Source: an uncultured Candidatus Saccharibacteria bacterium
Lineage (GTDB): Bacteria; Patescibacteriota; Saccharimonadia; Saccharimonadales; UBA10212
Direction: 5' to 3'
Length of the DNA: 45,524 bases
Assembly: GCA_964567555.1 (NCBI GenBank)
Contig: CAZMNA010000002.1
Coordinates: 71,795 to 117,318, forward strand
This document shows, one piece after another, positions 8,953 to 45,524 of this stretch. The notes beneath the pieces were generated by a model. The model ran no database searches, was not told the DNA's origin, and saw nothing but the letters and a program-made list of their open reading frames with translations. The position numbers and the translations under genes were made by a program. The first letter of the stretch is position 1. Every line of letters begins with the position of its first letter.

Positions 8953-9993
8953 TTAATAGTTAAAGAAAATTTTCTTTTGCTTAGAATCGATACGGCCCTT
9001 TTGCCCTGCCGGGACTACAATCTGCGGATCGGTGTGGCCAAACTCCATGTTCTGAATCACCGGAATGTGTCTATTATAAAAACGAATAGAATCAATAACT
9101 GCTTTCTGCTGGGCTTGCCTGAACTTAACCTTCTCTTCAAGTGATAGCATGCGGTGGAAGTTCCATGCCTTCGGTCGACCAAACAAAACGCCCTGAAGCC
9201 TGTCAAACCAGCCGCGCTCCCCTAGTCCATTCAAAAAGTGAGCTACCATCCACGGCTCGGGCATCTCCTCGGACGTTTCCAAAAACAAAATGCAGCCTTC
9301 AATATCCTGGTTGCTGGGGACTGGCTGTCCAGCGGCAAAGGTTGCAATATAGGCCTCGAGACAGCCGCCCCACAAAATTCCTTCGGCGTCTTTATCGCCG
9401 TCCCAAAGCCAGCCGTCACTTTTCTCTGCCTTGGGTGGATTCCGCCAGTTCTTTTGATCTTCCCAAGAAATGGCTTCGTCGTTAAATTCCTTTGAGGCAC
9501 TTAACTCAAACTCTCCTTTATCAAACAAGGCGTGCTTTAGGTATTTGTCGGTTAGCGCAGAATTCACATACGAATGGCCAAATTGAATCATTACTCCACC
9601 ACCATAGTAGCTCGGAATGCCCAGATTCCAGAGGTAATTGACTAGATGCGCGTTGTCACTGTAGCCAAAGAAAGGCTTTGGATTATCGGTAAAGACCTTT
9701 GCGTCAAGGTGTTTAAGCAGGCGTACTTGATCGTAGCCACCCAGCGTAGAAATCACAGCTTTGTTTTTTGGGTCAGCAAAAGCTTCCATTAGTTCACTAG
9801 CTTTTTCTTGGTGAGTGGCGGCAAGTTTCCGGGTAAATGGATACTCTTTTGGCGACAAACCAAATTCCTTTTCTATCCGCTCAACGCCAAATTTGTAAAC
9901 CCATGGGAAACGGGCCGCAGCATCGCCCGCCGGAGACACCAGGGCCACCCGGTCGCCGGGTTTGAGCTTTGGAAGTTCTACGAACTGTTTCAT
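8953..9993 (-). CDS. S66 family peptidase (LD-carboxypeptidase/MccF-like)
   Basis: LKPGDRVALVSPA, GGYD, FFGYSDN, LWGGCLE, LFLETSEE, FGHTDP. Confidence 0.9.
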   Translation of the reverse strand: MKQFVELPKLKPGDRVALVSPAGDAAARFPWVYKFGVERIEKEFGLSPKEYPFTRKLAATHQEKASELMEAFADPKNKAVISTLGGYDQVRLLKHLDAKVFTDNPKPFFGYSDNAHLVNYLWNLGIPSYYGGGVMIQFGHSYVNSALTDKYLKHALFDKGEFELSASKEFNDEAISWEDQKNWRNPPKAEKSDGWLWDGDKDAEGILWGGCLEAYIATFAAGQPVPSNQDIEGCILFLETSEEMPEPWMVAHFLNGLGERGWFDRLQGVLFGRPKAWNFHRMLSLEEKVKFRQAQQKAVIDSIRFYNRHIPVIQNMEFGHTDPQIVVPAGQKGRIDSKQKKIFFNY

Positions 9994-12806
9994 AGTTCGC
10001 CCCAGTTTTTGCCTATTAAAATATCAGCTTTAAGTTTTACAGGCAGTTTGTAGGCCGATTCCATTACGTCTTTGACTAGTTTGCCGACTCTTTCTGCCTG
10101 ATTAGCCGGCGTCTCTAAAATCAAGCTGTCATGAATCTGCAAAAGTATTTTGCAATCATCGTCCAGCTTAGCGGCCAGCTGAACCATGGCCAGCTTCATA
10201 ATATCGGCGGCCGTCCCCTGCATGGGATGGTTGATAGCGGCGCGGTAAGCCGCCTCCCTCACGATGAAATTACTTGAGTGAATATCCGGCGTGGGCCGGC
10301 GCCGGCCCAGCAAAGTCTCTACATAGCCCTGCTTTTCTGCCAGAGCACGAGTTTTTTCTATGTAGGCTTTGAGGGCTGGGCGGATTTGGAAATAGCGTTT
10401 TATAAAATCACGGGCTGCACCAAAATCCATGCCAGTGGATTGGGAAAGGGCGTGCGGGCCAAGGCCATACATGATGCCAAAATTGACCTCTTTAACAGAT
10501 GAGCGCTGAGTTTTGGTGACCTTGTCTGCTGGGATACCGTAAAGTTCGGCTGCCGTTTCTGCGTGAATGTCAGCATCATTGTTAAAGGCCTTTATCATGT
10601 TGCCATCACCACTCAGAGAAGCCGCAATACGGAGTTCAAACTGGCTGTAATCCGCACTGATAAGCAGGTTACCTTTTTCTGCCACAAAGGCTGTACGGAT
10701 ATTGCGACCAAGCTCCGTCTTGACTGGAATGTTCTGCAAATTGGGGCCTTCTGAACTTAACCGACCGGTTGGTGCGACAGTTAAATTGAATGTTGTGTGC
10801 ACGCGCGAGTTTTTATCAACCTGTCCGGGCAGAGTGTCTGCATAAGTATTTTTGAGCTTAGTGGCCTCGCGGTACTGCGAGATTAAATCGATGATAGGAT
10901 GGGCGCCTTGGAGTTTAGCAAGTTCGCTGGCAGCGGTTGAGTAACCAGTCTTTCCTTTCTTAATGCTCCACGCCCCTTGCACCATACCAACCTGCTCACC
11001 GGCAGAGCCGGTAACACTGTTGGTACTGGCGACGGCTGACTGCGTTGAAGCCTGCGTCTGCTCCTTCAGCGCACCATCTTTGTGCGCCTTAGTCCGCTGC
11101 TCGGCTTCGCCTTGTCCCCCACTCGCCTGCACAAAGCGTGAACTGCCTCGTGTCGGTAATTGAAGTTTTATAAACAAAACTTCGGCCAGCTGAATTGGCG
11201 AACTGATGTTGAACTCAAAGTCGGCATAACCATAAATTTTTTGTTCAATGTCGCTGATATCGCCTTCCAGCTTGGCAGCAAACTTCTTTAAATAGCTGGT
11301 GTCTAGTTTGATGCCGGCCATCTCCATATCCGCCAAAACGTGTGTTAGCGGCCATTCAATTTCTTTAGCCAGCTTGTTCACTTTGGGCATTTGCTCTAGC
11401 GCCAGCTTCTGGCCACTGTAAAGTTCACTAGTTACGGCCATGATTTCATCGCCCCGGGCCAACAAATCCTCGGTGGGCAAATCATCCAGGCTAGGGCCGT
11501 CATAATCAAGACCGGCTGAGGCTAGTTCTGTCAGGCTTTGGGCGCGTACCAATGGATTTATCAAAAAAGCGCCGACCAAAATATCGTGTTCTACCGGAGG
11601 GTAATCTACGCCTAGATTTTTTAATACCTTGAGGCCATTTTTAACGTCATAGCCGATTAAACTTTTGCCTTTGAGGATTTGGCCGACTGCTTTGGCGGCT
11701 TTAGCGCCATCTAGACCAGCCAGGTCAAAACCAAGCGCCTCGGTTGGGTTGCCTAAAATTATCATTCGCGGGTCCGCGCCGTGCGCACCTGTGGCCCGGC
11801 TATATATAAAAATTTGCTCGCCGGCCAGTTTTAGCCCCGCCAGCCCCGTGTCACGCGCAATAATTTTGTACTTGGGCAGTTTGATTTTTGATGCAATTTG
11901 GTTGGCCGGTGCATCCGGTACCTGCATGTTGGCTGGCAAATTGCGCAGCAAGCTCCTAAACTCCAGCTGTTCCAGCAGTTTATGCAGGTGAGTTACATCA
12001 ATTTTAGAACTGTCCATCTCTTTGAGGTTGAGTTTCATCGGCGCGTCACACCAAATAGCGGCAATTTTTTTGCTCAGATATGCGCTGTCTTTGCCGGCCA
12101 CCAGTTTTTTACGCACGGAGTCTTTTATTAGGTCAATATTTTCATACACACCGTCCAGGGTTTTATATTGTTTGAGCAGTTCAATGGCTGTTTTCTCGCC
12201 AATGCCCGGTACGCCCGGGATGTTATCGGAACTATCACCCTTTAAGGCTTTAAGGTCCAAAAATTGCGTAGCCTGAAGGCCATATTTGGCCTCAAAACTT
12301 TCCGGATGGTATTCCTCTATGTTAGAAAAGCCTTTTTTGAGCGCATAGACCTTAACGTGGTGGGTAATTAGCTGGAGTACGTCCAGATCGGAGGTAATTA
12401 GCAGTGTTTCAACGTCTTTTTTCTCGGCCTGCACAGCAAGCGTTCCCATAATATCGTCGGCTTCATAATCATCCAGCTCATAAAGCGGCCAGCCAAAAGC
12501 GCTAAGCAGGTCATGCAGAATCGGGATTTGGGTATAAAAGTCCGGGGGAGCCGGTTTGCGCCCAGCTTTGTACTCCGGATACATCTCTTTGCGTTTTCTA
12601 ATGTTGGTTTTGGGCTTGTCCCACGCCACGCAGACATAATCTGGCTGAAGTTTTTTAATTAGCTCCAGCGCCATAGCGGCAAAACCAAACACACCGCCGG
12701 TGGGTACGCCGTCACCCGTAGAAAGATTGGGCATGGCGTAATAACCACGGTAAAACACACTTTTACCATCAATAATCGCCAGCTTTTTTCTAGCCTCCGC
12801 CATCAC
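9990..12806 (-). CDS. polA: DNA polymerase I with a 60-aa in-frame insertion
   Basis: 5' nuclease motifs (IDGKS..YRGYYA, YEADD, GDSSDNIPGVPGIGEK) and polymerase motifs (GRLSSEGPNLQNIP, ADYSQFELR, KEVNFGIMYG, QGTAAD, LLQIHDSL). Confidence 0.97.
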   Translation of the reverse strand: MMAEARKKLAIIDGKSVFYRGYYAMPNLSTGDGVPTGGVFGFAAMALELIKKLQPDYVCVAWDKPKTNIRKRKEMYPEYKAGRKPAPPDFYTQIPILHDLLSAFGWPLYELDDYEADDIMGTLAVQAEKKDVETLLITSDLDVLQLITHHVKVYALKKGFSNIEEYHPESFEAKYGLQATQFLDLKALKGDSSDNIPGVPGIGEKTAIELLKQYKTLDGVYENIDLIKDSVRKKLVAGKDSAYLSKKIAAIWCDAPMKLNLKEMDSSKIDVTHLHKLLEQLEFRSLLRNLPANMQVPDAPANQIASKIKLPKYKIIARDTGLAGLKLAGEQIFIYSRATGAHGADPRMIILGNPTEALGFDLAGLDGAKAAKAVGQILKGKSLIGYDVKNGLKVLKNLGVDYPPVEHDILVGAFLINPLVRAQSLTELASAGLDYDGPSLDDLPTEDLLARGDEIMAVTSELYSGQKLALEQMPKVNKLAKEIEWPLTHVLADMEMAGIKLDTSYLKKFAAKLEGDISDIEQKIYGYADFEFNISSPIQLAEVLFIKLQLPTRGSSRFVQASGGQGEAEQRTKAHKDGALKEQTQASTQSAVASTNSVTGSAGEQVGMVQGAWSIKKGKTGYSTAASELAKLQGAHPIIDLISQYREATKLKNTYADTLPGQVDKNSRVHTTFNLTVAPTGRLSSEGPNLQNIPVKTELGRNIRTAFVAEKGNLLISADYSQFELRIAASLSGDGNMIKAFNNDADIHAETAAELYGIPADKVTKTQRSSVKEVNFGIMYGLGPHALSQSTGMDFGAARDFIKRYFQIRPALKAYIEKTRALAEKQGYVETLLGRRRPTPDIHSSNFIVREAAYRAAINHPMQGTAADIMKLAMVQLAAKLDDDCKILLQIHDSLILETPANQAERVGKLVKDVMESAYKLPVKLKADILIGKNWGEL
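10965..11144 (-). mobile_element. 180-nt in-frame palindromic insertion in polA (RPE-like)
   Basis: Interrupts LPTRG|IKKGKTGYST. Ends AGTTCACGCTTTGTGCA and TGCAAGGGGCGTGGAGC pair with G-U wobbles. Internal GGC-GAA-GCC and GCGCAC/GTGCGC hairpins. Confidence 0.65.
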
Positions 12807-12830: not shown

Positions 12831-13871
12831 TTATTGCTCAGGTGTGGTTGGATCGACTTCTAAGATCTGGCGCAGTCTTTGTAGCTCAACTGCAGCTTTG
12901 TGCGCCTCGCTAGCCACCTGGCCAAGCGGCGGCTGGGATGGATCTTCACCTTTTACGTCGGCAAGCTCGTGCGTACCATATGTTACGACTCCGATGTTTC
13001 TGGTTTTACCGACGCGTTCTAGCTCAAGCATGGTCATTACAGCATCTGTTTCCCTTGACGGTTGATAAGTTGAACTGGTAACAAAGCCCACTTCTCGGTC
13101 CTCACTTTCAGGCAATTGGGCAAGGAAATTATTTATTACTTTCATCAAGCCAGCTGGTCCTAAGGTATTATATTTCTTAGGGTCGTCAGGGTCTGGATAT
13201 TCACGATCAACTCTGAGTAGATGCACTGGAGTTATATGATCGACAAAACCTAGGTTCTTTAGTTGCCCTGTTTTACTTTCTGTCTGTACTTCGCCCTCAA
13301 TGCTATAGCCAAAGTGTAAGACTTCCACTGGGCGAGGTTGCATACGAGGAATTTTATAAGCTACCTGTTGGGCCACATCGTACTCAGTCGGGCCGACAGA
13401 GTCTGTATTTAGACCAAGTACTCTCGCGGTAATCTCTCTTTCCTTAGCTTTGTCCTCATCAGTTGCAGGAATTGCCCGCTCAGGGGTAGCGGCTATAATG
13501 ATGGCACTTGGTTTAGCTGTTGCGTCTGACAAAACTACAAAGATTTCAGCTAGCATTTTATGCGCCTGACCGCCTTCTATAATTGCAACGTAACCATTCC
13601 TTAAACCAGCCTCGCTAGCAGTTAGATTGGTCTCCCGGCCAACGCCAAGTTTAGCCATGGCCTCACGAAGAGCGGTCTCCTGGCCAGTATCTAAAGTATA
13701 TTCAGTGTCCGCTCGACGCTCGCCAGGTTCGGGAAAAATTTCAAGCGGACTTGCGCCACTATTGGCCGGCTCTACAGCAACCACCGCTTCTGCTAAAGCC
13801 CCCGCCATTTTATCTAGTGTTTGGCGGGCTTTTTCTTCAGCTGAAACCGGGTAGCCTTCGTGTTTTGTCAT
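12831..13871 (-). CDS. Hypothetical protein (possible distant YdcF/DUF218-like fold)
   Basis: 346-aa ORF with TATAGT 7 nt before the ATG. FVTSSTYQPSR only loosely resembles the YdcF VTSxxHxxR motif. Confidence 0.55.
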   Translation of the reverse strand: MTKHEGYPVSAEEKARQTLDKMAGALAEAVVAVEPANSGASPLEIFPEPGERRADTEYTLDTGQETALREAMAKLGVGRETNLTASEAGLRNGYVAIIEGGQAHKMLAEIFVVLSDATAKPSAIIIAATPERAIPATDEDKAKEREITARVLGLNTDSVGPTEYDVAQQVAYKIPRMQPRPVEVLHFGYSIEGEVQTESKTGQLKNLGFVDHITPVHLLRVDREYPDPDDPKKYNTLGPAGLMKVINNFLAQLPESEDREVGFVTSSTYQPSRETDAVMTMLELERVGKTRNIGVVTYGTHELADVKGEDPSQPPLGQVASEAHKAAVELQRLRQILEVDPTTPEQ

Positions 13872-15088: not shown

Positions 15089-16339
15089 TTATTGTAAATA
15101 CTCGTGCAGGCGGCGGGTATCTTTGTTCTTGCGCAGTTTGGCCAGAGCCTTGGCTTCAATTTGACGAATGCGCTCACGGGTGACGCTAAATTCTTGGCCG
15201 ACTTCTTCAAGCGTGTGGCTTTTGCCGTCTTCTAGCCCAAAGCGTAGCTTTAAAATCTTTTGCTCGCGGTCGGTTAAAGACGACAATATCCGGCGGACTT
15301 GTTCTTTGAGCAGTTGCTCAGAAGCCGACTCGGTCGGGGTTTTGGCGTCTTCATCTTCAATAAAGTCACCCAGTACTGAATCTTCCTCATCGTCGCGCAC
15401 AGACGCGTCCAGGCTGGAAATGTCCTGCTTGATTTTCATGATGTGCTCAACTTTATCTACGTCCATTTCCATAGCCACGGCGATTTCTTCGTTGGTAGGT
15501 TCGCGGTTGAGCTCTTGGGTTAATCTACGCTGGGTTCTAAGCAGTTTATTGATGGTCTCTACCATATGCACCGGAATACGAATGGTACGGGCTTGGTCGG
15601 CAATGGCCCGGGTGATGGCTTGGCGGATCCACCAAGTGGCATAGGTGGAGAATTTAAAGCCGCGGTCAGGGTCAAATTTTTCCACCGCTCTAAGCAGGCC
15701 GGTATTGCCTTCCTGAATTAAGTCCAGTAAATCCAAGCCACGCCCTACGTAACGCTTGGCGATGGACACAACCAGGCGCATGTTAGCCTCGGCCATGGCG
15801 TCCTTGGCGCGTTTTTCACCGCGCTTTACCCGGCGGGCCAGTGCCAGCTCTTCCTCGGCCGTCAGCAGCGGGATTTTACCGATTTCACGCAAGTAAAGCC
15901 GCACAGAGTCGTCTGAAATATCATCCAGGAAGGCGGCGTCTGGCGTGACGGTTTTTTCTTCGGGTTCGTCTTCCCATTCGGCTAAGTCGGTGGCTTCTGG
16001 AGCCTCCACCGGCACCAGCTCAATATCGTTTTCGCTCATTTCGGCATAGAGCCGCTCCAGCACATCAATATTGGCAGGCGTATCGGGTATAAGAGTAAAT
16101 ATTTCGCGCTGTTCTAGCTTGCCATCGCGCTTGGCCTGTTCCAATAACTGGGAAATTTCGCGGTCGTAGCTTTTGGAGGTACGGCGTGGGCCGCGTTTAG
16201 CAGCCACTTTAGCTACAGCCGGCTTTTTAGCCACCGGTTTCTTAACCACCGGTTTTTTAACGGCAGCAGCTTTTTTGGGGGCAGCTTTTTTTATCGCCGG
16301 TTTTTTGGCTTTGGGCTTCGCGGTATCTTTTTTAGGCAT
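15089..16339 (-). CDS. rpoD: Primary RNA polymerase sigma factor RpoD
   Basis: [37 protein letters not shown]-type region ([33 protein letters not shown]), [13 protein letters not shown]. Confidence 0.97.
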
Positions 16340-30315: not shown

Positions 30316-31338
30316 TTAACCGAGTTCTTTTTTAAACTTTTCTACAAAATCTACCGGCGCTGGATTCACGCCGTTTAAAAGCCCCAAATAAATAGTCACA
30401 AAATCACCATATCCAATCGCCCAAAGCAGCTGCTCCAGCAAATCATTCCCTTGCACACTAATCACATGCGGTGCCGGGCGGCGGCCGGACAATAACTTTT
30501 CCGCAACTTCAAAACGCCGCAGGATTCTTGGGTTCTCTAGACTGGAGCGCAGCTCCACCACCGCATACGGTTTTTGAACTGGGTGCGATGTCCAGCCAAT
30601 CAGCTCGTTATGGTCAAACTCCGGCAGCTCGTTCCACCAAGCTACATTTTTGGCATTTTCATTAACATTGATCTTCCATTTGTAGGCAGATGGTGCCATC
30701 AACGGGCCACCGTAAATAACAACCGACTTACCGGCCAGCTCCATGGCCAATTTCTTAGCCGGGTTATCGCTCATTGGCACGGTTGGCAGCCACGCCTTAA
30801 CGGCACCTGCCAAGAATTCTACGCCCTCGGCGATTTCCCTGCCTTGCTCGGGCGCTAGGCCTGCCGCTTTTAGGATACTTTCCACCGCCTTTAGCATATA
30901 AAGCACCGCGTAGCGCGGCTGCTCGGCCTTGGGAACTAGAACAAACGCGTGGCTGCCTGCCTCAGCCAGTTCTTTAAGCTTGCCACCGCCTGCCATAACC
31001 ACAATGCGCGCTCTGGCTTTTACGGCTTCGTCTAAAGCCGAGAGTGTTTCTTCCGTATTACCCGAATAGGAGCAAGCAATAAATAGCGTATCGGGCCCCA
31101 CATAGGCCGGAACGTGGTAATTCCTAACCACTTCAAACGGCACCTTGGCGCCTGGCCAAACTTTGGCAAAAAGTGCCGGCAAAGCCGAGCCGCCCATACC
31201 TGCAAAAACAACATTTTTATAAAAGCCGCCAAGATCCGGCACGCTAAACTCATGCTTTAGCTGAGTAGCTTGGCGCTCAGCCACACCCAGAGCGTCTTGC
31301 CCGTCCCGCTGGTGTATGTATTTTAAATCATCTAGCAC
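30316..31338 (-). CDS. Bifunctional phosphoglucose/phosphomannose isomerase (SIS domains)
   Basis: VFAGMGGSA, SYSGNTEETL, QPR, NENAK, LPEFDHNE. Confidence 0.92.
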   Translation of the reverse strand: MLDDLKYIHQRDGQDALGVAERQATQLKHEFSVPDLGGFYKNVVFAGMGGSALPALFAKVWPGAKVPFEVVRNYHVPAYVGPDTLFIACSYSGNTEETLSALDEAVKARARIVVMAGGGKLKELAEAGSHAFVLVPKAEQPRYAVLYMLKAVESILKAAGLAPEQGREIAEGVEFLAGAVKAWLPTVPMSDNPAKKLAMELAGKSVVIYGGPLMAPSAYKWKINVNENAKNVAWWNELPEFDHNELIGWTSHPVQKPYAVVELRSSLENPRILRRFEVAEKLLSGRRPAPHVISVQGNDLLEQLLWAIGYGDFVTIYLGLLNGVNPAPVDFVEKFKKELG

Positions 31339-31374: not shown

Positions 31375-31773
31375 TTAGAGGTTTTTGCGACGGTTTATGA
31401 TGTAGTGGCCTGTGCCAGCCAGTGCGCTGGTGCCAACAAACAGTTCAGTCACGTCACCGGGCCCAGTGTTAGGCACTTCATTTGGCTTATTGGCTGACGC
31501 AGAACTGTTGCTTTTAGCGGCTTTGGACTTACTACCGGTCTGGTGTTGAGACGTTTGCTGGCTTGTCCCGGCAGAGCTGGCAGTTTGATTGGCCTTACTG
31601 TGATGATGAATTGCCCTGCCAATGAAAATTGCAATAACCAGGATAATAACGGCTCCAAGTACCCGCACAGGCCAGTTTAATCTGCCAATGGATTTGTTAT
31701 AAAAATCTTTGGCAGGCAAACGCTTGCCTTCACTTTCCGTTTCTTCCACCGGATTCTTTAAATCTTCGTCCAT
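31375..31773 (-). CDS. Small membrane protein with LPXTG-like (VPNTG) C-terminal sorting-type signal
   Basis: N-terminal TM, Ser/Gln-rich linker, VPNTG, moderately hydrophobic stretch, RRK tail. Confidence 0.6.
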   Translation of the reverse strand: MDEDLKNPVEETESEGKRLPAKDFYNKSIGRLNWPVRVLGAVIILVIAIFIGRAIHHHSKANQTASSAGTSQQTSQHQTGSKSKAAKSNSSASANKPNEVPNTGPGDVTELFVGTSALAGTGHYIINRRKNL

Positions 31774-35536: not shown

Positions 35537-35575
35537 CTAGCACTCATAATAGCCGAGTGCCAAATTGTCTGTCAA
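35537..35575 (-). promoter_or_regulatory. CIRCE element overlapping a sigma70 promoter of groESL
   Basis: Minus strand TTGGCACTC-N9-GAGTGCTAG (35563-35537); TTGACA (35575-35570)-N18-TATTAT (35551-35546). Confidence 0.9.
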
Positions 35576-35587
35576 GGCAAACAAAAA

Positions 35588-35647
35588 ACCCGCTGTTTTT
35601 AAAGCGGGTGTTTGCGAGTGCGGGGGTCGGCCGTGGCCGACCCCCGC
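35588..35647 (-). terminator. Two tandem hairpins downstream of the GC-rich orphan
   Basis: ACCCGCT/AGCGGGT and the perfect 13-bp GCGGGGGTCGGCC/GGCCGACCCCCGC. Confidence 0.6.
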
Positions 35648-35659
35648 CGATCCGTCGTC

Positions 35660-36328
35660 CTAGCTCCGAACGATCAAGGACTTGGGCTCGTAGCGGCCCC
35701 AGTCCCAGCCCTCTGGGTCTCCCCAGTCGGGTTCGGTCTGGGCTCCGCGCTGAAGGCGGTCAATTACATCCGCTCGGCTGAGCGGACCGCCGCCGTATTC
35801 CACGTGGAATTCCGGCGGTAGCTCCACCGCACCATCGAGCTCCTCGAAAAGACTGAGGATGTCAGGGTCTACCGCGTCGAGCGGGTCGTCATCGGGGTCT
35901 CCGAGCTCAGCGGGCTCACGGAGGACCGCGTAGTCCACCTCGCTATGCGCCGGCTCCGGCACAGGTGCCGGAACATCGAGCACGGCTCTTGCGGGAAGCG
36001 ATACCGCGACACGTGGGTTCGGCGTGGTCAGATACGTCTCCGGCTCGGGGACGTAGACCTTGCTGCCGTGGTGGCGCCTGCGCACCCTGTAGGTGCGGCG
36101 GCGTTCTCCGCGGAGGCAGCGCTGCGCGCTGATCAGCACGACATTGTCTGTCGTGGCCTCCTCCTCGTAGAACTCGCGCTTCTCGAGCGCGACAAGACCG
36201 TCAATGGCGGCCTTGCGCTGCTCGTAGCAGCGTTCCACCTCCCACGCCATTCTTTCTTCGGGTGTGGGATCCAACTGTGCGAGTGCCGACATGGTCAGCT
36301 CCTTCAGGTCGTAGGGACGGATCGTCAC
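35660..36328 (-). CDS. GC-rich orphan hypothetical protein
   Basis: 222-aa ORF, acidic/Pro-rich C-half, followed by a strong hairpin. The start may be the second ATG (MSALAQ). Confidence 0.55.
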   Translation of the reverse strand: MTIRPYDLKELTMSALAQLDPTPEERMAWEVERCYEQRKAAIDGLVALEKREFYEEEATTDNVVLISAQRCLRGERRRTYRVRRRHHGSKVYVPEPETYLTTPNPRVAVSLPARAVLDVPAPVPEPAHSEVDYAVLREPAELGDPDDDPLDAVDPDILSLFEELDGAVELPPEFHVEYGGGPLSRADVIDRLQRGAQTEPDWGDPEGWDWGRYEPKSLIVRS

Positions 36329-36421
36329 CAGAAAGTACTACTCTGGTGAATGGGCATATTTTACCATAACAACTTTAAAAAGCAAACGTTTATGCTTAGG
36401 CGGATTGTTATACTAAAATCT

Positions 36422-45469: not shown

Positions 45470-45524
45470 GCGCGTGTAGCTCAGCTGGATAGAGCGTCGG
45501 CTTGCGGAGCCGAAGGTCGTAGGT
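45470..45524 (+). tRNA. tRNA-Arg(GCG), truncated by the window end
   Basis: GCGCGTG-TA-GCTCAGCTGGATAGAGC-G-TCGGC-TTGCGGA-GCCGA; anticodon at 45504-45506. Confidence 0.85.

What the first reader, a model, noticed from the sequence alone, without database searches (positions are those of the whole stretch)
10965..11144. 60-aa in-frame, stem-closed insertion in the polA thumb region
Seen: the usual LPT.G-IKK.KTGYST segment is split by 180 nt encoding low-complexity Ser/Ala/Gln/Gly sequence. The DNA ends form a roughly 15-bp imperfect stem whose mismatches are mostly G-U compatible on the coding strand, with internal hairpins. It lacks the Cys/Ser...His-Asn termini of an intein and is too short for one. 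Established: Rickettsia palindromic elements insert in frame into coding genes. Inference: this is an RPE-like selfish repeat tolerated in a surface loop, or an RNA element that is removed or folds in the mRNA.
Basis: partly seen in the sequence, partly recalled or inferred. Interest (0 to 1): 0.65.

Follow-up and report, generated by a model that had tools for sequence, protein, structure and literature searches.

The report
Palindromic in-frame insert in polA
A soil Saccharibacteria (TM7) DNA polymerase I gene carries a real 180-base, GC-rich, hairpin-forming insert. It most likely adds a floppy 60-residue loop at the tip of the enzyme's thumb, and it behaves like a separate, recently shared piece of DNA rather than an old part of the gene.

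Summary
polA (9990..12803, minus strand) has a clean 180-nt in-frame insert at 10965..11144, between LPTRG and IKKGKTGYST. It is absent from all 120 closest PolA relatives listed. It is 100% identical in three independent assemblies and in contigs of about 12 sequencing runs.

The insert is 62% GC against a 48% background and rich in Ser, Ala, Gln and Gly. AlphaFold predicts disorder. A 14-bp helix with four G·U pairs closes it exactly at the alignment-defined ends, which only 0.1% of random windows do.

It is not an intein, a known intron or any Rfam family.

The new result is a second, divergent lineage with the same insert at the same site. Its insert is 88% identical with no gaps, while the adjacent polA codons are only 60% identical. 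The visible substitutions are 10 nonsynonymous to 2 synonymous. So the peptide drifts freely, yet the DNA is far younger or more constrained than its host gene.

A 40-nt inner hairpin also has 80-89% look-alikes in other contigs with unrelated flanks.

The best reading is a tolerated, translated passenger loop encoded by a discrete palindromic unit that works like an RPE or MITE. No second full-length copy was found, so membership of a repeat family is unproven.

The parts
9990..12806 (-). polA (DNA polymerase I). The ORF runs from a GTG at 12806, but the annotated product on record starts at the ATG at 12803 (937 aa).
   Evidence: The Pfam domains are 5_3_exonuc_N, 5_3_exonuc and DNA_pol_A. 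The best homologues are Saccharibacteria/Saccharimonadales PolA proteins of 851-892 aa.
10965..11144 (-). 180-nt in-frame insert encoding 60 aa. It is 61.7% GC, against 48.3% for the rest of polA and 47.9% for the window.
   Evidence: Only 1.3% of 180-nt windows in the window are as GC-rich.
11128..11142 (-). 5' arm of the closing helix (sense positions 3-17, TTCACGCTTTGTGCA).
   Evidence: Fold. Anchoring statistic.
10967..10981 (-). 3' arm of the closing helix (sense positions 164-178, TGCAAGGGGCGTGGA). It encodes Q-G-A-W-S.
11028..11127 (-). Long imperfect hairpin 1 (sense positions 18-117). Its apical stem is GGCGCAC/GTGCGCT.
   Evidence: The same topology appears on both strands.
10985..11026 (-). 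Hairpin 2 module of 42 nt (GTACCAAC..ACCGGCTCTGCCGGT..GTTGGTA), encoding (S)TNSVTGSAGEQVG. This is the part with look-alikes in other contigs.
   Evidence: The fold is -22 kcal/mol, z = -4.2 on the sense strand and -3.3 on the antisense strand. The repeat finder pair I1. Partial copies A, B, C and E.
11145..11174 (-). Upstream polA flank, K-L-Q-L-P-T-R-G with the preceding codons. This is the end of thumb helix H1 and the canonical x-x-G.
   Evidence: In the second lineage the insert-spanning 30 nt (11139-11168: the first two insert codons plus this flank) are only 18/30 identical.
10935..10964 (-). Downstream polA flank, I-K-K-G-K-T-G-Y-S-T. This is the conserved thumb-tip motif.

Best explanation
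The 180 nt are a discrete, GC-rich, nested quasi-palindromic DNA unit inserted cleanly and in frame between the Gly and Ile codons of the H1-H2 loop at the tip of the Pol I thumb.

It is most likely transcribed and translated with the gene. The product is a compositionally simple, intrinsically disordered 60-residue loop that the enzyme tolerates, because the thumb tip is a recurrent site of insertions in family A polymerases. The peptide itself is a passenger with no sequence-level selection on it.

The DNA unit has a more recent common origin than the polA genes that host it. It reached, or was exchanged between, two divergent Saccharibacteria lineages as a unit. Its inner 40-nt hairpin belongs to a set of similar modules found in other loci of the same communities. 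It therefore works like a small non-autonomous palindromic insertion element of the RPE or MITE type.

Shown: the insert and its boundaries, the stem anchoring, the predicted disorder, absence from close relatives, same-site presence in a second lineage, the contrast between insert and flank divergence, and the neutral substitution pattern.

Inferred: translation, horizontal movement and its mechanism, and the relationship to the partial copies.
For: 1. The insertion is clean and in frame. It is absent from all 120 best homologues, including the nearest NJ neighbours P0001 and P0002, which are 76% identical in protein outside the insert. P0001 also occurs in the same JGI sample.
2. Composition is foreign: 62% GC against 48%.
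3. A 14-bp closing helix is anchored at the alignment-defined ends (P about 0.001). The architecture is the same on both strands.
4. AlphaFold2 gives pLDDT 22-43 with no secondary structure across the insert, and 79 or more in the flanks. The insert follows helix H1. Thumb-tip insertions are recurrent in PolA families: the T7 TBD lies before H1, the phiKMV-like insertion after H1, and POPs carry a hairpin there (PMC10201439).
5. Run X17, from a different study where our strain is absent, has a 259-nt contig matching 10948-11138 with 23 mismatches and no gaps (88%). The same contig continues into polA codons KLNLPTHGSS. These are only 18/30 identical to ours: 9 of 10 codons differ while 8 of 10 residues are the same. 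Fisher tests give P = 1e-4 to 5e-4 for nucleotide differences, and P = 2e-6 for codons with a synonymous-type change (8/10 in the flank against 2/43 in the insert).
6. Of the 12 visible substitutions, 10 are nonsynonymous and 2 synonymous. No reading frame on either strand shows an excess of synonymous changes. Unpaired positions changed in 3 of 45 cases and paired positions in 9 of 86. Divergence is therefore low and uniform, as expected from recency rather than from peptide or pairing constraint.
7. Four other contigs match the hairpin-2 region at 80-89% with unrelated distal flanks (A 10991-11031, B 10976-11011, C 10979-11024, E 10986-11023). Contig A stays similar in register for 21 of the next 30 nt.
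Against: - No second full-length copy was found in the 45.5-kb window, in about 14 kb of extra flanking genome, or at 80% identity or more in eight metagenome runs that hold the whole organism.
- There is no target-site duplication, and the terminal inverted repeat is weak at DNA level (10 of 15 positions).
- No transposase-like gene was seen among the eight ORFs scanned, five of them flanking polA.
- The second-lineage evidence rests on one low-depth (2.1x) 259-nt contig and 30 nt of flank. Eleven of its 23 differences lie in the two 30-nt ends of the alignment, which the tool does not print, so the closing arms may be less conserved than the core.
- The partial copies could not be retrieved. 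Apart from contig A, 36-46-nt matches at 80-89% are near the noise level for Gb-scale searches with GC-rich queries, as searches show.
- The second lineage's substitutions preserve the fold slightly better than random sets do (P about 0.04). This leaves some room for constraint instead of recency.
Confidence: 0.5

Rival explanations
1. The insert is a one-off local loop expansion. It arose in situ by replication errors, such as hairpin-templated or template-switch synthesis that builds quasi-palindromes. It was inherited vertically by two sister lineages and has no mobility or family.
For: Only one copy was found in about 60 kb of genome and none at full length in the metagenomes. The same site carries other, unrelated short inserts: P0032 and P0042 have 14 aa, P0130 12 aa and P0188 about 17 aa. 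The site is therefore an indel hot spot. The nested palindromic build is what template switching produces.
Against: A neutrally evolving insert of the same age as the split should be as diverged as the synonymous sites of the flank, which are near saturation. It is only about 10-12% diverged, with no indels. Its GC content is 14 points above the local sequence. No local donor sequence was found. Contig A shares about 71 nt with it.
Confidence: 0.22
2. The sequence is kept for a nucleic-acid function. It could be a structured element in the polA mRNA that modulates translation speed or mRNA decay, or a small RNA or protein-binding site embedded in the gene. The peptide would be a by-product.
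For: The sense-strand fold is z = -5.05 with G·U pairs specific to that strand. The peptide evolves neutrally while the nucleotides are 88% conserved. The second lineage's substitutions keep the fold better than composition-matched random sets (MFE -81.4 against -73.4 ± 4.4, P about 0.04). Five of nine changes at paired positions are wobble-compatible. The partners of three 'broken' pairs lie in the unprinted zone, so they may be compensated.
Against: There is no Rfam match, even at E = 10 or below. There are no promoter-like or terminator-like sites. Unpaired positions are as conserved as paired ones, which pairing constraint does not predict. No double compensatory change is visible. The fold energy is unremarkable against the genome background (z = -2.1). 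The element is absent from nearly all relatives, so polA does not need it.
Confidence: 0.13
3. The insert is an adaptive protein-level insertion. The loop would bind a partner or DNA at the thumb tip and change processivity, as the T7 thioredoxin-binding domain does.
For: The position is the thumb tip, directly after helix H1, where the T7, phiKMV-like and POP polymerases carry functional insertions. Three independent inserts at this site end in W-x-I-K/R-K (GAWS, GAWN, QPWT).
Against: The loop is predicted to be fully disordered and has about zero net charge. Ten of 12 visible substitutions are nonsynonymous, giving 8 amino-acid replacements. This is incompatible with normal purifying selection on a binding surface. 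No homologue exists among 1.84 billion cluster representatives.
Confidence: 0.08
4. The insert is removed before the mature enzyme forms, as an intein, a self-splicing or other intron, or by translational bypass.
For: The closing stem brings the two gene halves together in the RNA.
Against: At 60 aa it is too short for an intein. There is no Hint domain. It lacks the terminal His-Asn and a +1 Cys, Ser or Thr. There is no group I or II or other Rfam hit. The length is a multiple of three and the frame is open in both lineages. There are no matched take-off and landing codons and no stop after the take-off site.
Confidence: 0.03

Closest known systems
Rickettsia palindromic elements (RPEs)
   Same: Short (about 100-150 bp) palindromic, non-coding-capacity elements found inserted in frame in unrelated, even essential, genes, adding a peptide the host protein tolerates (review PMC10969869). 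Here too the unit is a stem-closed 180 nt, in frame, in a predicted surface-exposed disordered loop, and evolves independently of the host gene.
   Different: RPEs form families with tens of copies per genome and a conserved family peptide. Here only one full-length copy per genome was found, the peptide is not conserved, the host is a CPR bacterium (Saccharibacteria), and no sequence relationship to RPEs was tested or is expected.
Bacterial MITEs and hairpin-ended single-strand elements (REP/BIME, IS200/IS605-derived)
   Same: Small size, no coding capacity for a transposase, terminal inverted or hairpin structure, and occasional in-frame fusions. The lack of a target-site duplication and the strand-specific G·T pairing resemble IS200/IS605-type ends; this point is from my own knowledge and was not tested.
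   Different: There is no multi-copy family, no identified partner transposase, and no defined target motif. The terminal repeat is only 10 of 15 complementary at DNA level.
Thumb-tip insertions of family A polymerases (T7 gp5 thioredoxin-binding domain, the phiKMV-like ~100-aa insertion, the POP beta-hairpin)
   Same: The location is the tip of the thumb. Like the phiKMV-like insertion, this one follows helix H1 (PMC10201439).
   Different: Those insertions are structured, conserved at protein level and tied to processivity. This one is predicted to be disordered, compositionally simple and evolving neutrally, and it sits in a canonical bacterial Pol I.
Mini-inteins in replication genes
   Same: An in-frame insertion in a polymerase gene, absent from close relatives.
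   Different: There is no Hint fold or motifs, the wrong terminal residues, and less than half the minimal size.
GC-rich palindromic clusters and 'byp' elements in yeast mitochondrial genes
   Same: GC-rich, hairpin-forming, mobile short inserts sitting inside coding regions of AT-richer genomes. This comparison is from my own knowledge and was not tested.
   Different: Those elements are 27-55 nt, often break the frame and are skipped by the ribosome. This insert is 180 nt, in frame and has no bypass signals.

Membership tests
RPE-like in-frame palindromic repeat family | Palindromic (stem-closed) unit of about 100-200 bp | tested here: met
   A 14-bp closing helix sits at both ends, with nested hairpins. 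The sense strand gives z = -5.05 and the antisense strand z = -2.7. The anchoring occurs in 0.11% of random windows.
RPE-like in-frame palindromic repeat family | Inserted in frame in a protein gene, at a position the fold tolerates | tested here: met
   The insert is 180 nt with no stop, lies between G and I of the thumb-tip loop, and has pLDDT 22-43.
RPE-like in-frame palindromic repeat family | Multiple copies per genome, in unrelated genes and intergenic DNA | tested here: not met
   About 60 kb of the genome holds a single copy. No other full-length copy at 80% or more exists in 8 metagenome runs holding the organism. Only 36-71-nt partial look-alikes of unknown genomic origin were seen. 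The whole genome could not be scanned.
RPE-like in-frame palindromic repeat family | Evolutionary history decoupled from the host gene (presence or absence among relatives; element younger than the gene) | tested here: met
   The insert is absent from the 120 closest PolA proteins. In the second lineage it is 88% identical, against 60% for the adjacent codons. This rests on one short contig.
RPE-like in-frame palindromic repeat family | Family-specific conserved peptide or sequence homology to known RPE families | not tested
   No Rickettsia sequences were compared. The peptide here is not conserved (10 of 12 substitutions are nonsynonymous).
MITE | Terminal inverted repeats plus a target-site duplication | tested here: not met
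   The terminal repeat is imperfect: 10 of 15 Watson-Crick, with the rest G·T on one strand. No direct repeat flanks the junctions GAGGC|AGTTC and GGAGC|ATTAA.
Intein | Hint domain; N-terminal Cys/Ser; C-terminal His-Asn followed by Cys/Ser/Thr; at least about 130 aa | tested here: not met
   The insert is 60 aa, ends Trp-Ser and is followed by Ile. Pfam finds nothing in it at E = 10 or below.
Group I/II intron or other described structured RNA | Match to a curated covariance model | tested here: not met
   The Rfam gathering scan of the window finds only tRNAs. The permissive scan of 10700-11400 finds nothing relevant.
Functional thumb-tip domain of family A polymerases (TBD-like) | Located at the thumb tip between helices H/H1/H2 | tested here: met
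   In the PDB alignment the insert falls between Taq residues of about 505 and 507. In the AF2 model it follows helix H1.
Functional thumb-tip domain of family A polymerases (TBD-like) | Structured, protein-level conserved insertion | tested here: not met
   It is predicted to be disordered, shows a neutral substitution pattern, and has no homologue among cluster representatives.

The most novel reading that the evidence does not exclude
Soil Saccharibacteria (CPR bacteria) harbour a previously undescribed family of small GC-rich palindromic modules that spread in frame through protein-coding genes. One composite 180-nt member has moved between the polA genes of divergent lineages into exactly the same thumb-tip codon junction. 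This would be an RPE-like, possibly site-specific, mobile insertion outside Rickettsia, in organisms with tiny genomes and in an essential replication enzyme.
Probability: 0.3. Interest if true: 0.75.

Novelty: new variant of a known kind. Interest (0 to 1): 0.55.

Why it matters
In-frame palindromic insertions that create new peptide segments in essential proteins are documented mainly in Rickettsia. Finding the same behaviour in a candidate-phyla-radiation bacterium would show that this route of protein innovation, or parasitism, is more general. It would also show that it operates in very small, streamlined genomes.

The case is unusually clean. The insertion site, the insert-free relatives and a second insert-bearing lineage are all available. 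Mobility, translation and the effect on the polymerase can therefore be tested directly.

There is also a practical point. Lineage-specific low-complexity inserts in conserved marker genes of CPR genomes need not be assembly errors or ancient loops.

If the more conservative reading holds, a one-off loop expansion, the finding is ordinary.

Tried and rejected
**Searches for other copies**
- blastn and nhmmer of the insert against the window, five relatives' loci and about 14 kb of extra genome found nothing beyond 11-23-nt chance matches.
- A structural pattern for hairpin 2 matched only itself.

**Public-collection scans that carry little weight**
- Peptide-pattern scans of GTDB genomes, JGI metagenome contigs and IMG/VR returned no confirmed relative. 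However, a JGI contig from sample 3300028573 does hold the exact insert and one search did not return it.
- Two short-query protein searches failed outright. The second could not even find the protein it was cut from. They are uninformative.

**Contig retrieval.** Exact 30-mers from contig A were absent from genome contigs and metagenome contigs. A hairpin pattern was absent from viral contigs.

**Annotated collections.** blastn against plasmids and phages gave only chance-level 20-59-nt hits. One 32-nt Rhizobium acyltransferase hit (E = 1e-3) crosses the insert junction and is therefore coincidental.

**Ancestry from the short insert.** I considered whether the short insert in P0032 and P0042 (..DGAWN-IKK) is the ancestor of this one. 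I rejected that as the main explanation. Those proteins fall in a different NJ clade, and their insert is AT-rich and unstructured. Only the W-x-IKK ending is shared.

**Antisense ORF.** One antisense frame is open across the insert. It shows no synonymous bias and has no start or promoter signal.

**RNA evidence.** No RNA runs were available.

**Control for chance matches.** A control read laying at 15640-15859 landed in a highly conserved gene and did not calibrate chance matches.

**Second stem-closed segment.** A 14-nt inverted repeat pair at 30785/30944 lies in an ordinary part of a SIS-domain gene, not in an insert.
Full report
**What is there**

The window comes from a soil or rhizosphere member of the Saccharibacteria (TM7, Saccharimonadales). 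The best PolA matches carry those names, and the same DNA occurs in rhizosphere metagenomes.

polA lies on the minus strand at 9990..12806. The product on record starts at the ATG at 12803 and is 937 aa. Pfam finds the two 5'-nuclease domains and a DNA_pol_A domain matched in two stretches.

In the alignment with 14 relatives, and in a survey of the 120 best homologues, the thumb-tip segment reads LP-x-x-G-IKKGKTG. 76 proteins fit this exactly. The other 42 that missed the strict pattern are all 851-890 aa, too short for a large insert. In the window, 60 residues are inserted between that Gly and Ile, encoded by 11144..10965.

**Is it real and more than chance?**

The insert is 100% identical in three independent assemblies: ENA ERZ27245399, ENA ERZ27245407 and JGI 3300028573. 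It is also identical in Logan contigs of eight rhizosphere runs, and no contig joins the flanks without it.

It is 61.7% GC, against 48.3% for the rest of polA. Only 1.3% of 180-nt windows are as GC-rich.

The sense strand folds at -83.1 kcal/mol, z = -5.05 against dinucleotide shuffles. The antisense strand adopts the same architecture at z = -2.7, and DNA parameters give z = -2.5. The architecture is therefore a DNA-level nested quasi-palindrome that gains four G·U pairs on the mRNA strand.

I then compared the exact window with 15,116 windows of the same sequence after regressing out composition. It is only at z = -2.1, in the top 2.9%. The raw stability is mostly a GC effect.

What is not a composition effect is the geometry. 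The 14-bp closing helix starts and ends within 3 nt of the boundaries that the protein alignment defines independently. Only 0.11% of random windows do this.

**What it is not**

- It is not an intein. It has 60 aa, no Hint domain, ends Trp-Ser and is followed by Ile.
- It matches no Rfam family, including group I and II introns, even in a permissive scan.
- It has no promoter-like or terminator-like sites.
- The antisense frame that happens to be open shows no coding signature.

**Where it sits in the protein**

Alignment to Klentaq places the insert between residues of about 505 and 507.

An AlphaFold2 model of the polymerase domain has pLDDT 22-43 and no secondary structure across the insert. 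The flanks have pLDDT of 79 or more. The insert directly follows thumb helix H1.

A published reclassification of family A polymerases states three relevant things (PMC10201439):
- The T7 thioredoxin-binding domain sits on the thumb tip before H1.
- The phiKMV-like insertion of about 100 aa follows H1.
- POPs have an extra hairpin there.

The site is therefore a known tolerant spot. Other canonical PolA proteins carry unrelated short inserts at exactly this junction: P0032 and P0042 have 14 aa, P0130 12 aa and P0188 about 17 aa. Three of these independent inserts end in W-x-I-K/R-K.

The P0042-type insert is AT-rich and unstructured, and its bearers fall in a different NJ clade from the window's PolA. 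I do not regard it as the precursor.

**Distribution**

None of the 120 closest PolA proteins (90% clusters) has the insert. This includes the nearest NJ neighbours P0001 and P0002, which are 76% identical outside the insert. P0001 also occurs in the same JGI sample.

A full HMMER pass over 1.84 billion cluster representatives matched only the flanks. That library shows one protein per 50% cluster, so insert-bearing variants inside clusters would be hidden.

The peptide-pattern scans of GTDB genomes, JGI contigs and IMG/VR were negative. I give them little weight, because a JGI contig that does hold the insert was not returned. The two short-query protein searches failed for technical reasons.

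**The key new result: a second lineage**

Run X17 comes from a different study, and the window's strain is absent from it. It contains a 259-nt contig that matches 10948-11138 with 23 mismatches and no gaps, 88% identity.

Beyond 11138 the same contig continues with 30 printed letters that translate, in frame, to K-L-N-L-P-T-H-G-S-S. The window has K-L-Q-L-P-T-R-G-S-S. This is therefore another polA with the same insert at the same junction.

In those 30 nt only 18 positions agree. Nine of ten codons differ while eight of ten residues are the same. The flank is as diverged as in the relatives that are about 75% identical in protein.

The contrast with the insert is significant:
- 12/30 against 12/130 visible nucleotide differences, P = 1.4e-4.
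- Codons with a synonymous-type change, 8/10 against 2/43, P = 2e-6.

Nothing else in X17 matches this polA as well or for as long, and 750 nt upstream of the insert have no match at 80% or more.

Of the 12 substitutions the tool prints, 10 are nonsynonymous (G24S, L26S, K27R, T30P, S36P, A37S, V38A, M54T) and 2 are synonymous. No frame on either strand shows a synonymous excess.

Unpaired positions changed in 3 of 45 cases and paired positions in 9 of 86. The peptide is therefore not under ordinary purifying selection, and the low divergence is uniform rather than concentrated in stems.

A neutrally evolving segment that is about 10% diverged, inside a gene whose synonymous sites are near saturation, is most simply a segment of more recent common origin. 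That means it was transferred or exchanged between lineages as a unit.

The high-similarity block ends within 6 nt of the upstream insert boundary. This argues against ordinary homologous recombination with long flanking tracts on that side.

Three caveats apply:
- This is one contig at 2.1x depth with 30 nt of flank.
- 11 of the 23 differences lie in the two terminal 30-nt zones that the tool does not print, so the closing arms may be more diverged than the core.
- The second lineage's substitutions keep the fold somewhat better than composition-matched random sets (P about 0.04). Some nucleic-acid-level constraint therefore cannot be excluded.

**Partial copies elsewhere**

Besides the organism's own contig, four other contigs in these metagenomes match the inner 42-nt hairpin (10985-11026; -22 kcal/mol, z = -4.2):
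- A matches 10991-11031 with 6 mismatches.
- B matches 10976-11011 with 5 mismatches.
- C matches 10979-11024 with 9 mismatches.
- E matches 10986-11023 with 4 mismatches.

On the side towards 10965 their flanks are unrelated to polA. On the other side, contig A stays similar in register for 21 of 30 nt (none of about 6,500 control comparisons reached this), B for 16 of 30 (P about 9e-4) and C for 13 of 30 (P about 0.02). E is unrelated on both sides.

Their flanks are 30-50% GC, so the GC-rich module sits in lower-GC surroundings, as in polA.

In the polA sense and frame they read as open frames..STNSVTGSAGEQ.. followed by hydrophobic stretches such as FTSWVILPL and RKFWVILMFM. A and C differ there by three consecutive synonymous changes. 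This suggests coding sequence in that sense, but the middle letters are borrowed from the window.

I could not retrieve these contigs. Matches of this size, other than contig A, are close to what Gb-scale searches return by chance for GC-rich queries. I treat this as suggestive only. It could mean a short repeat family, or a gene family that donated part of the insert.

**Copy number in this genome**

The 45.5-kb window, about 8 kb beyond its right end (L007) and about 6 kb beyond its left end (L009) contain no other copy of the insert or of the hairpin module.

The eight runs that carry the organism at 3-7x hold no other contig with 80% identity or more over more than 46 nt. At full length the element is therefore single-copy in this genome. 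This fails the defining multi-copy feature of RPEs and MITEs.

**Synthesis**

What is shown:
- A real, discrete, stem-closed, GC-rich 180-nt in-frame insert in a tolerant, disordered thumb-tip loop.
- It is restricted to at least two lineages.
- Its peptide drifts neutrally.
- Its DNA is far more alike between those lineages than the gene around it.

The most likely account (about 0.5) is a passenger loop encoded by a small palindromic unit that moves or is exchanged horizontally, working like an RPE or MITE.

I do not file it as a member of those families. The copy-number test and the TIR/TSD test were not met, and homology to RPEs was not tested.

The rivals are an in-situ, vertically inherited loop expansion (0.22), a selected RNA or DNA structure (0.13), an adaptive TBD-like protein loop (0.08), and removal at RNA or protein level (0.03).

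The decisive data already exist in public reads: the X17 lineage, contigs A, B, C and E, and the rest of the genome bin. They could not be reached with the tools at hand.

Noticed in passing
window 35560-36330 (ORF 35660..36328, minus strand): A GC-rich island of 64-66% GC, against about 48% background, encodes a 222-aa ORF with no Pfam match. It sits between an arginine-deiminase-like gene and groES/groEL and looks horizontally acquired. It holds some of the most structured 180-nt windows of the whole sequence. The same ORF position is occupied in the JGI contig L007.
   Followed up: partly
window 35537-35563: A CIRCE-like inverted repeat (CTAGCACTC-N9-GAGTGCCAA, 2 mismatches to the consensus) lies just upstream of groES. 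This is the expected HrcA operator and explains part of the strong local structure.
   Followed up: yes
window 12831..13871 (minus strand): A 346-aa ORF with no Pfam match lies between the AAA-type kinase gene and polA. In relatives L003 and L005 the kinase gene is directly adjacent to polA, so this ORF is an extra, lineage-specific gene next to the finding.
   Followed up: no
window 45470-45524 and beyond (L007 1-8250, L008 1-8250): The window ends in a tRNA gene. Beyond it, two assemblies of the same organism differ. The JGI contig carries a cluster of T4SS-pilin/TrbC genes and a GIY-YIG gene, which may be an integrated element at the tRNA. The ENA contig carries an inverted second copy of the HIT / HTH-HAD / ValRS / TsaD / Mur-ligase block, which could be a real inverted duplication or an assembly chimera.
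   Followed up: no
window 31375..31773 (minus strand): A small 132-aa protein has an N-terminal membrane segment, a Ser/Thr/Gln/Lys-rich low-complexity linker and a C-terminal VPNTG-hydrophobic-RRKNL tail, which is a sortase-type sorting signal. It is the only other strongly low-complexity coding stretch in the window.
   Followed up: partly
P0032, P0042 (L001 4497-4538), P0130, P0188: Other PolA proteins carry unrelated 12-17-aa inserts at exactly the same thumb-tip junction. Three independent inserts, including the window's, end in Trp-x-Ile-Lys/Arg-Lys. This hints at a structural requirement for re-entering the conserved IKKGKTG motif.
   Followed up: partly
L009 12784-20290 (about 6 kb left of the window start): A restriction-modification and defence-like cluster lies there: a fused N6-methylase/Eco57I/specificity protein, Hypoth_Ymh, Fic, and an HsdR-like helicase-nuclease.
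   Followed up: no
P0121 (1698 aa): The top hit of the representative search is a 1698-aa protein made of about 24 identical 68-residue repeats (..GAGWSLSFLSYF..). It matched only by a short low-complexity resemblance. It is probably an assembly or translation artefact and is irrelevant to polA.
   Followed up: yes
window 30785-30798 / 30944-30957: A 14-nt inverted repeat, 93% complementary, encloses 145 nt inside a SIS-domain sugar isomerase gene. It lies in an ordinary conserved part of the protein, not in an insert, so it is probably chance.
   Followed up: partly
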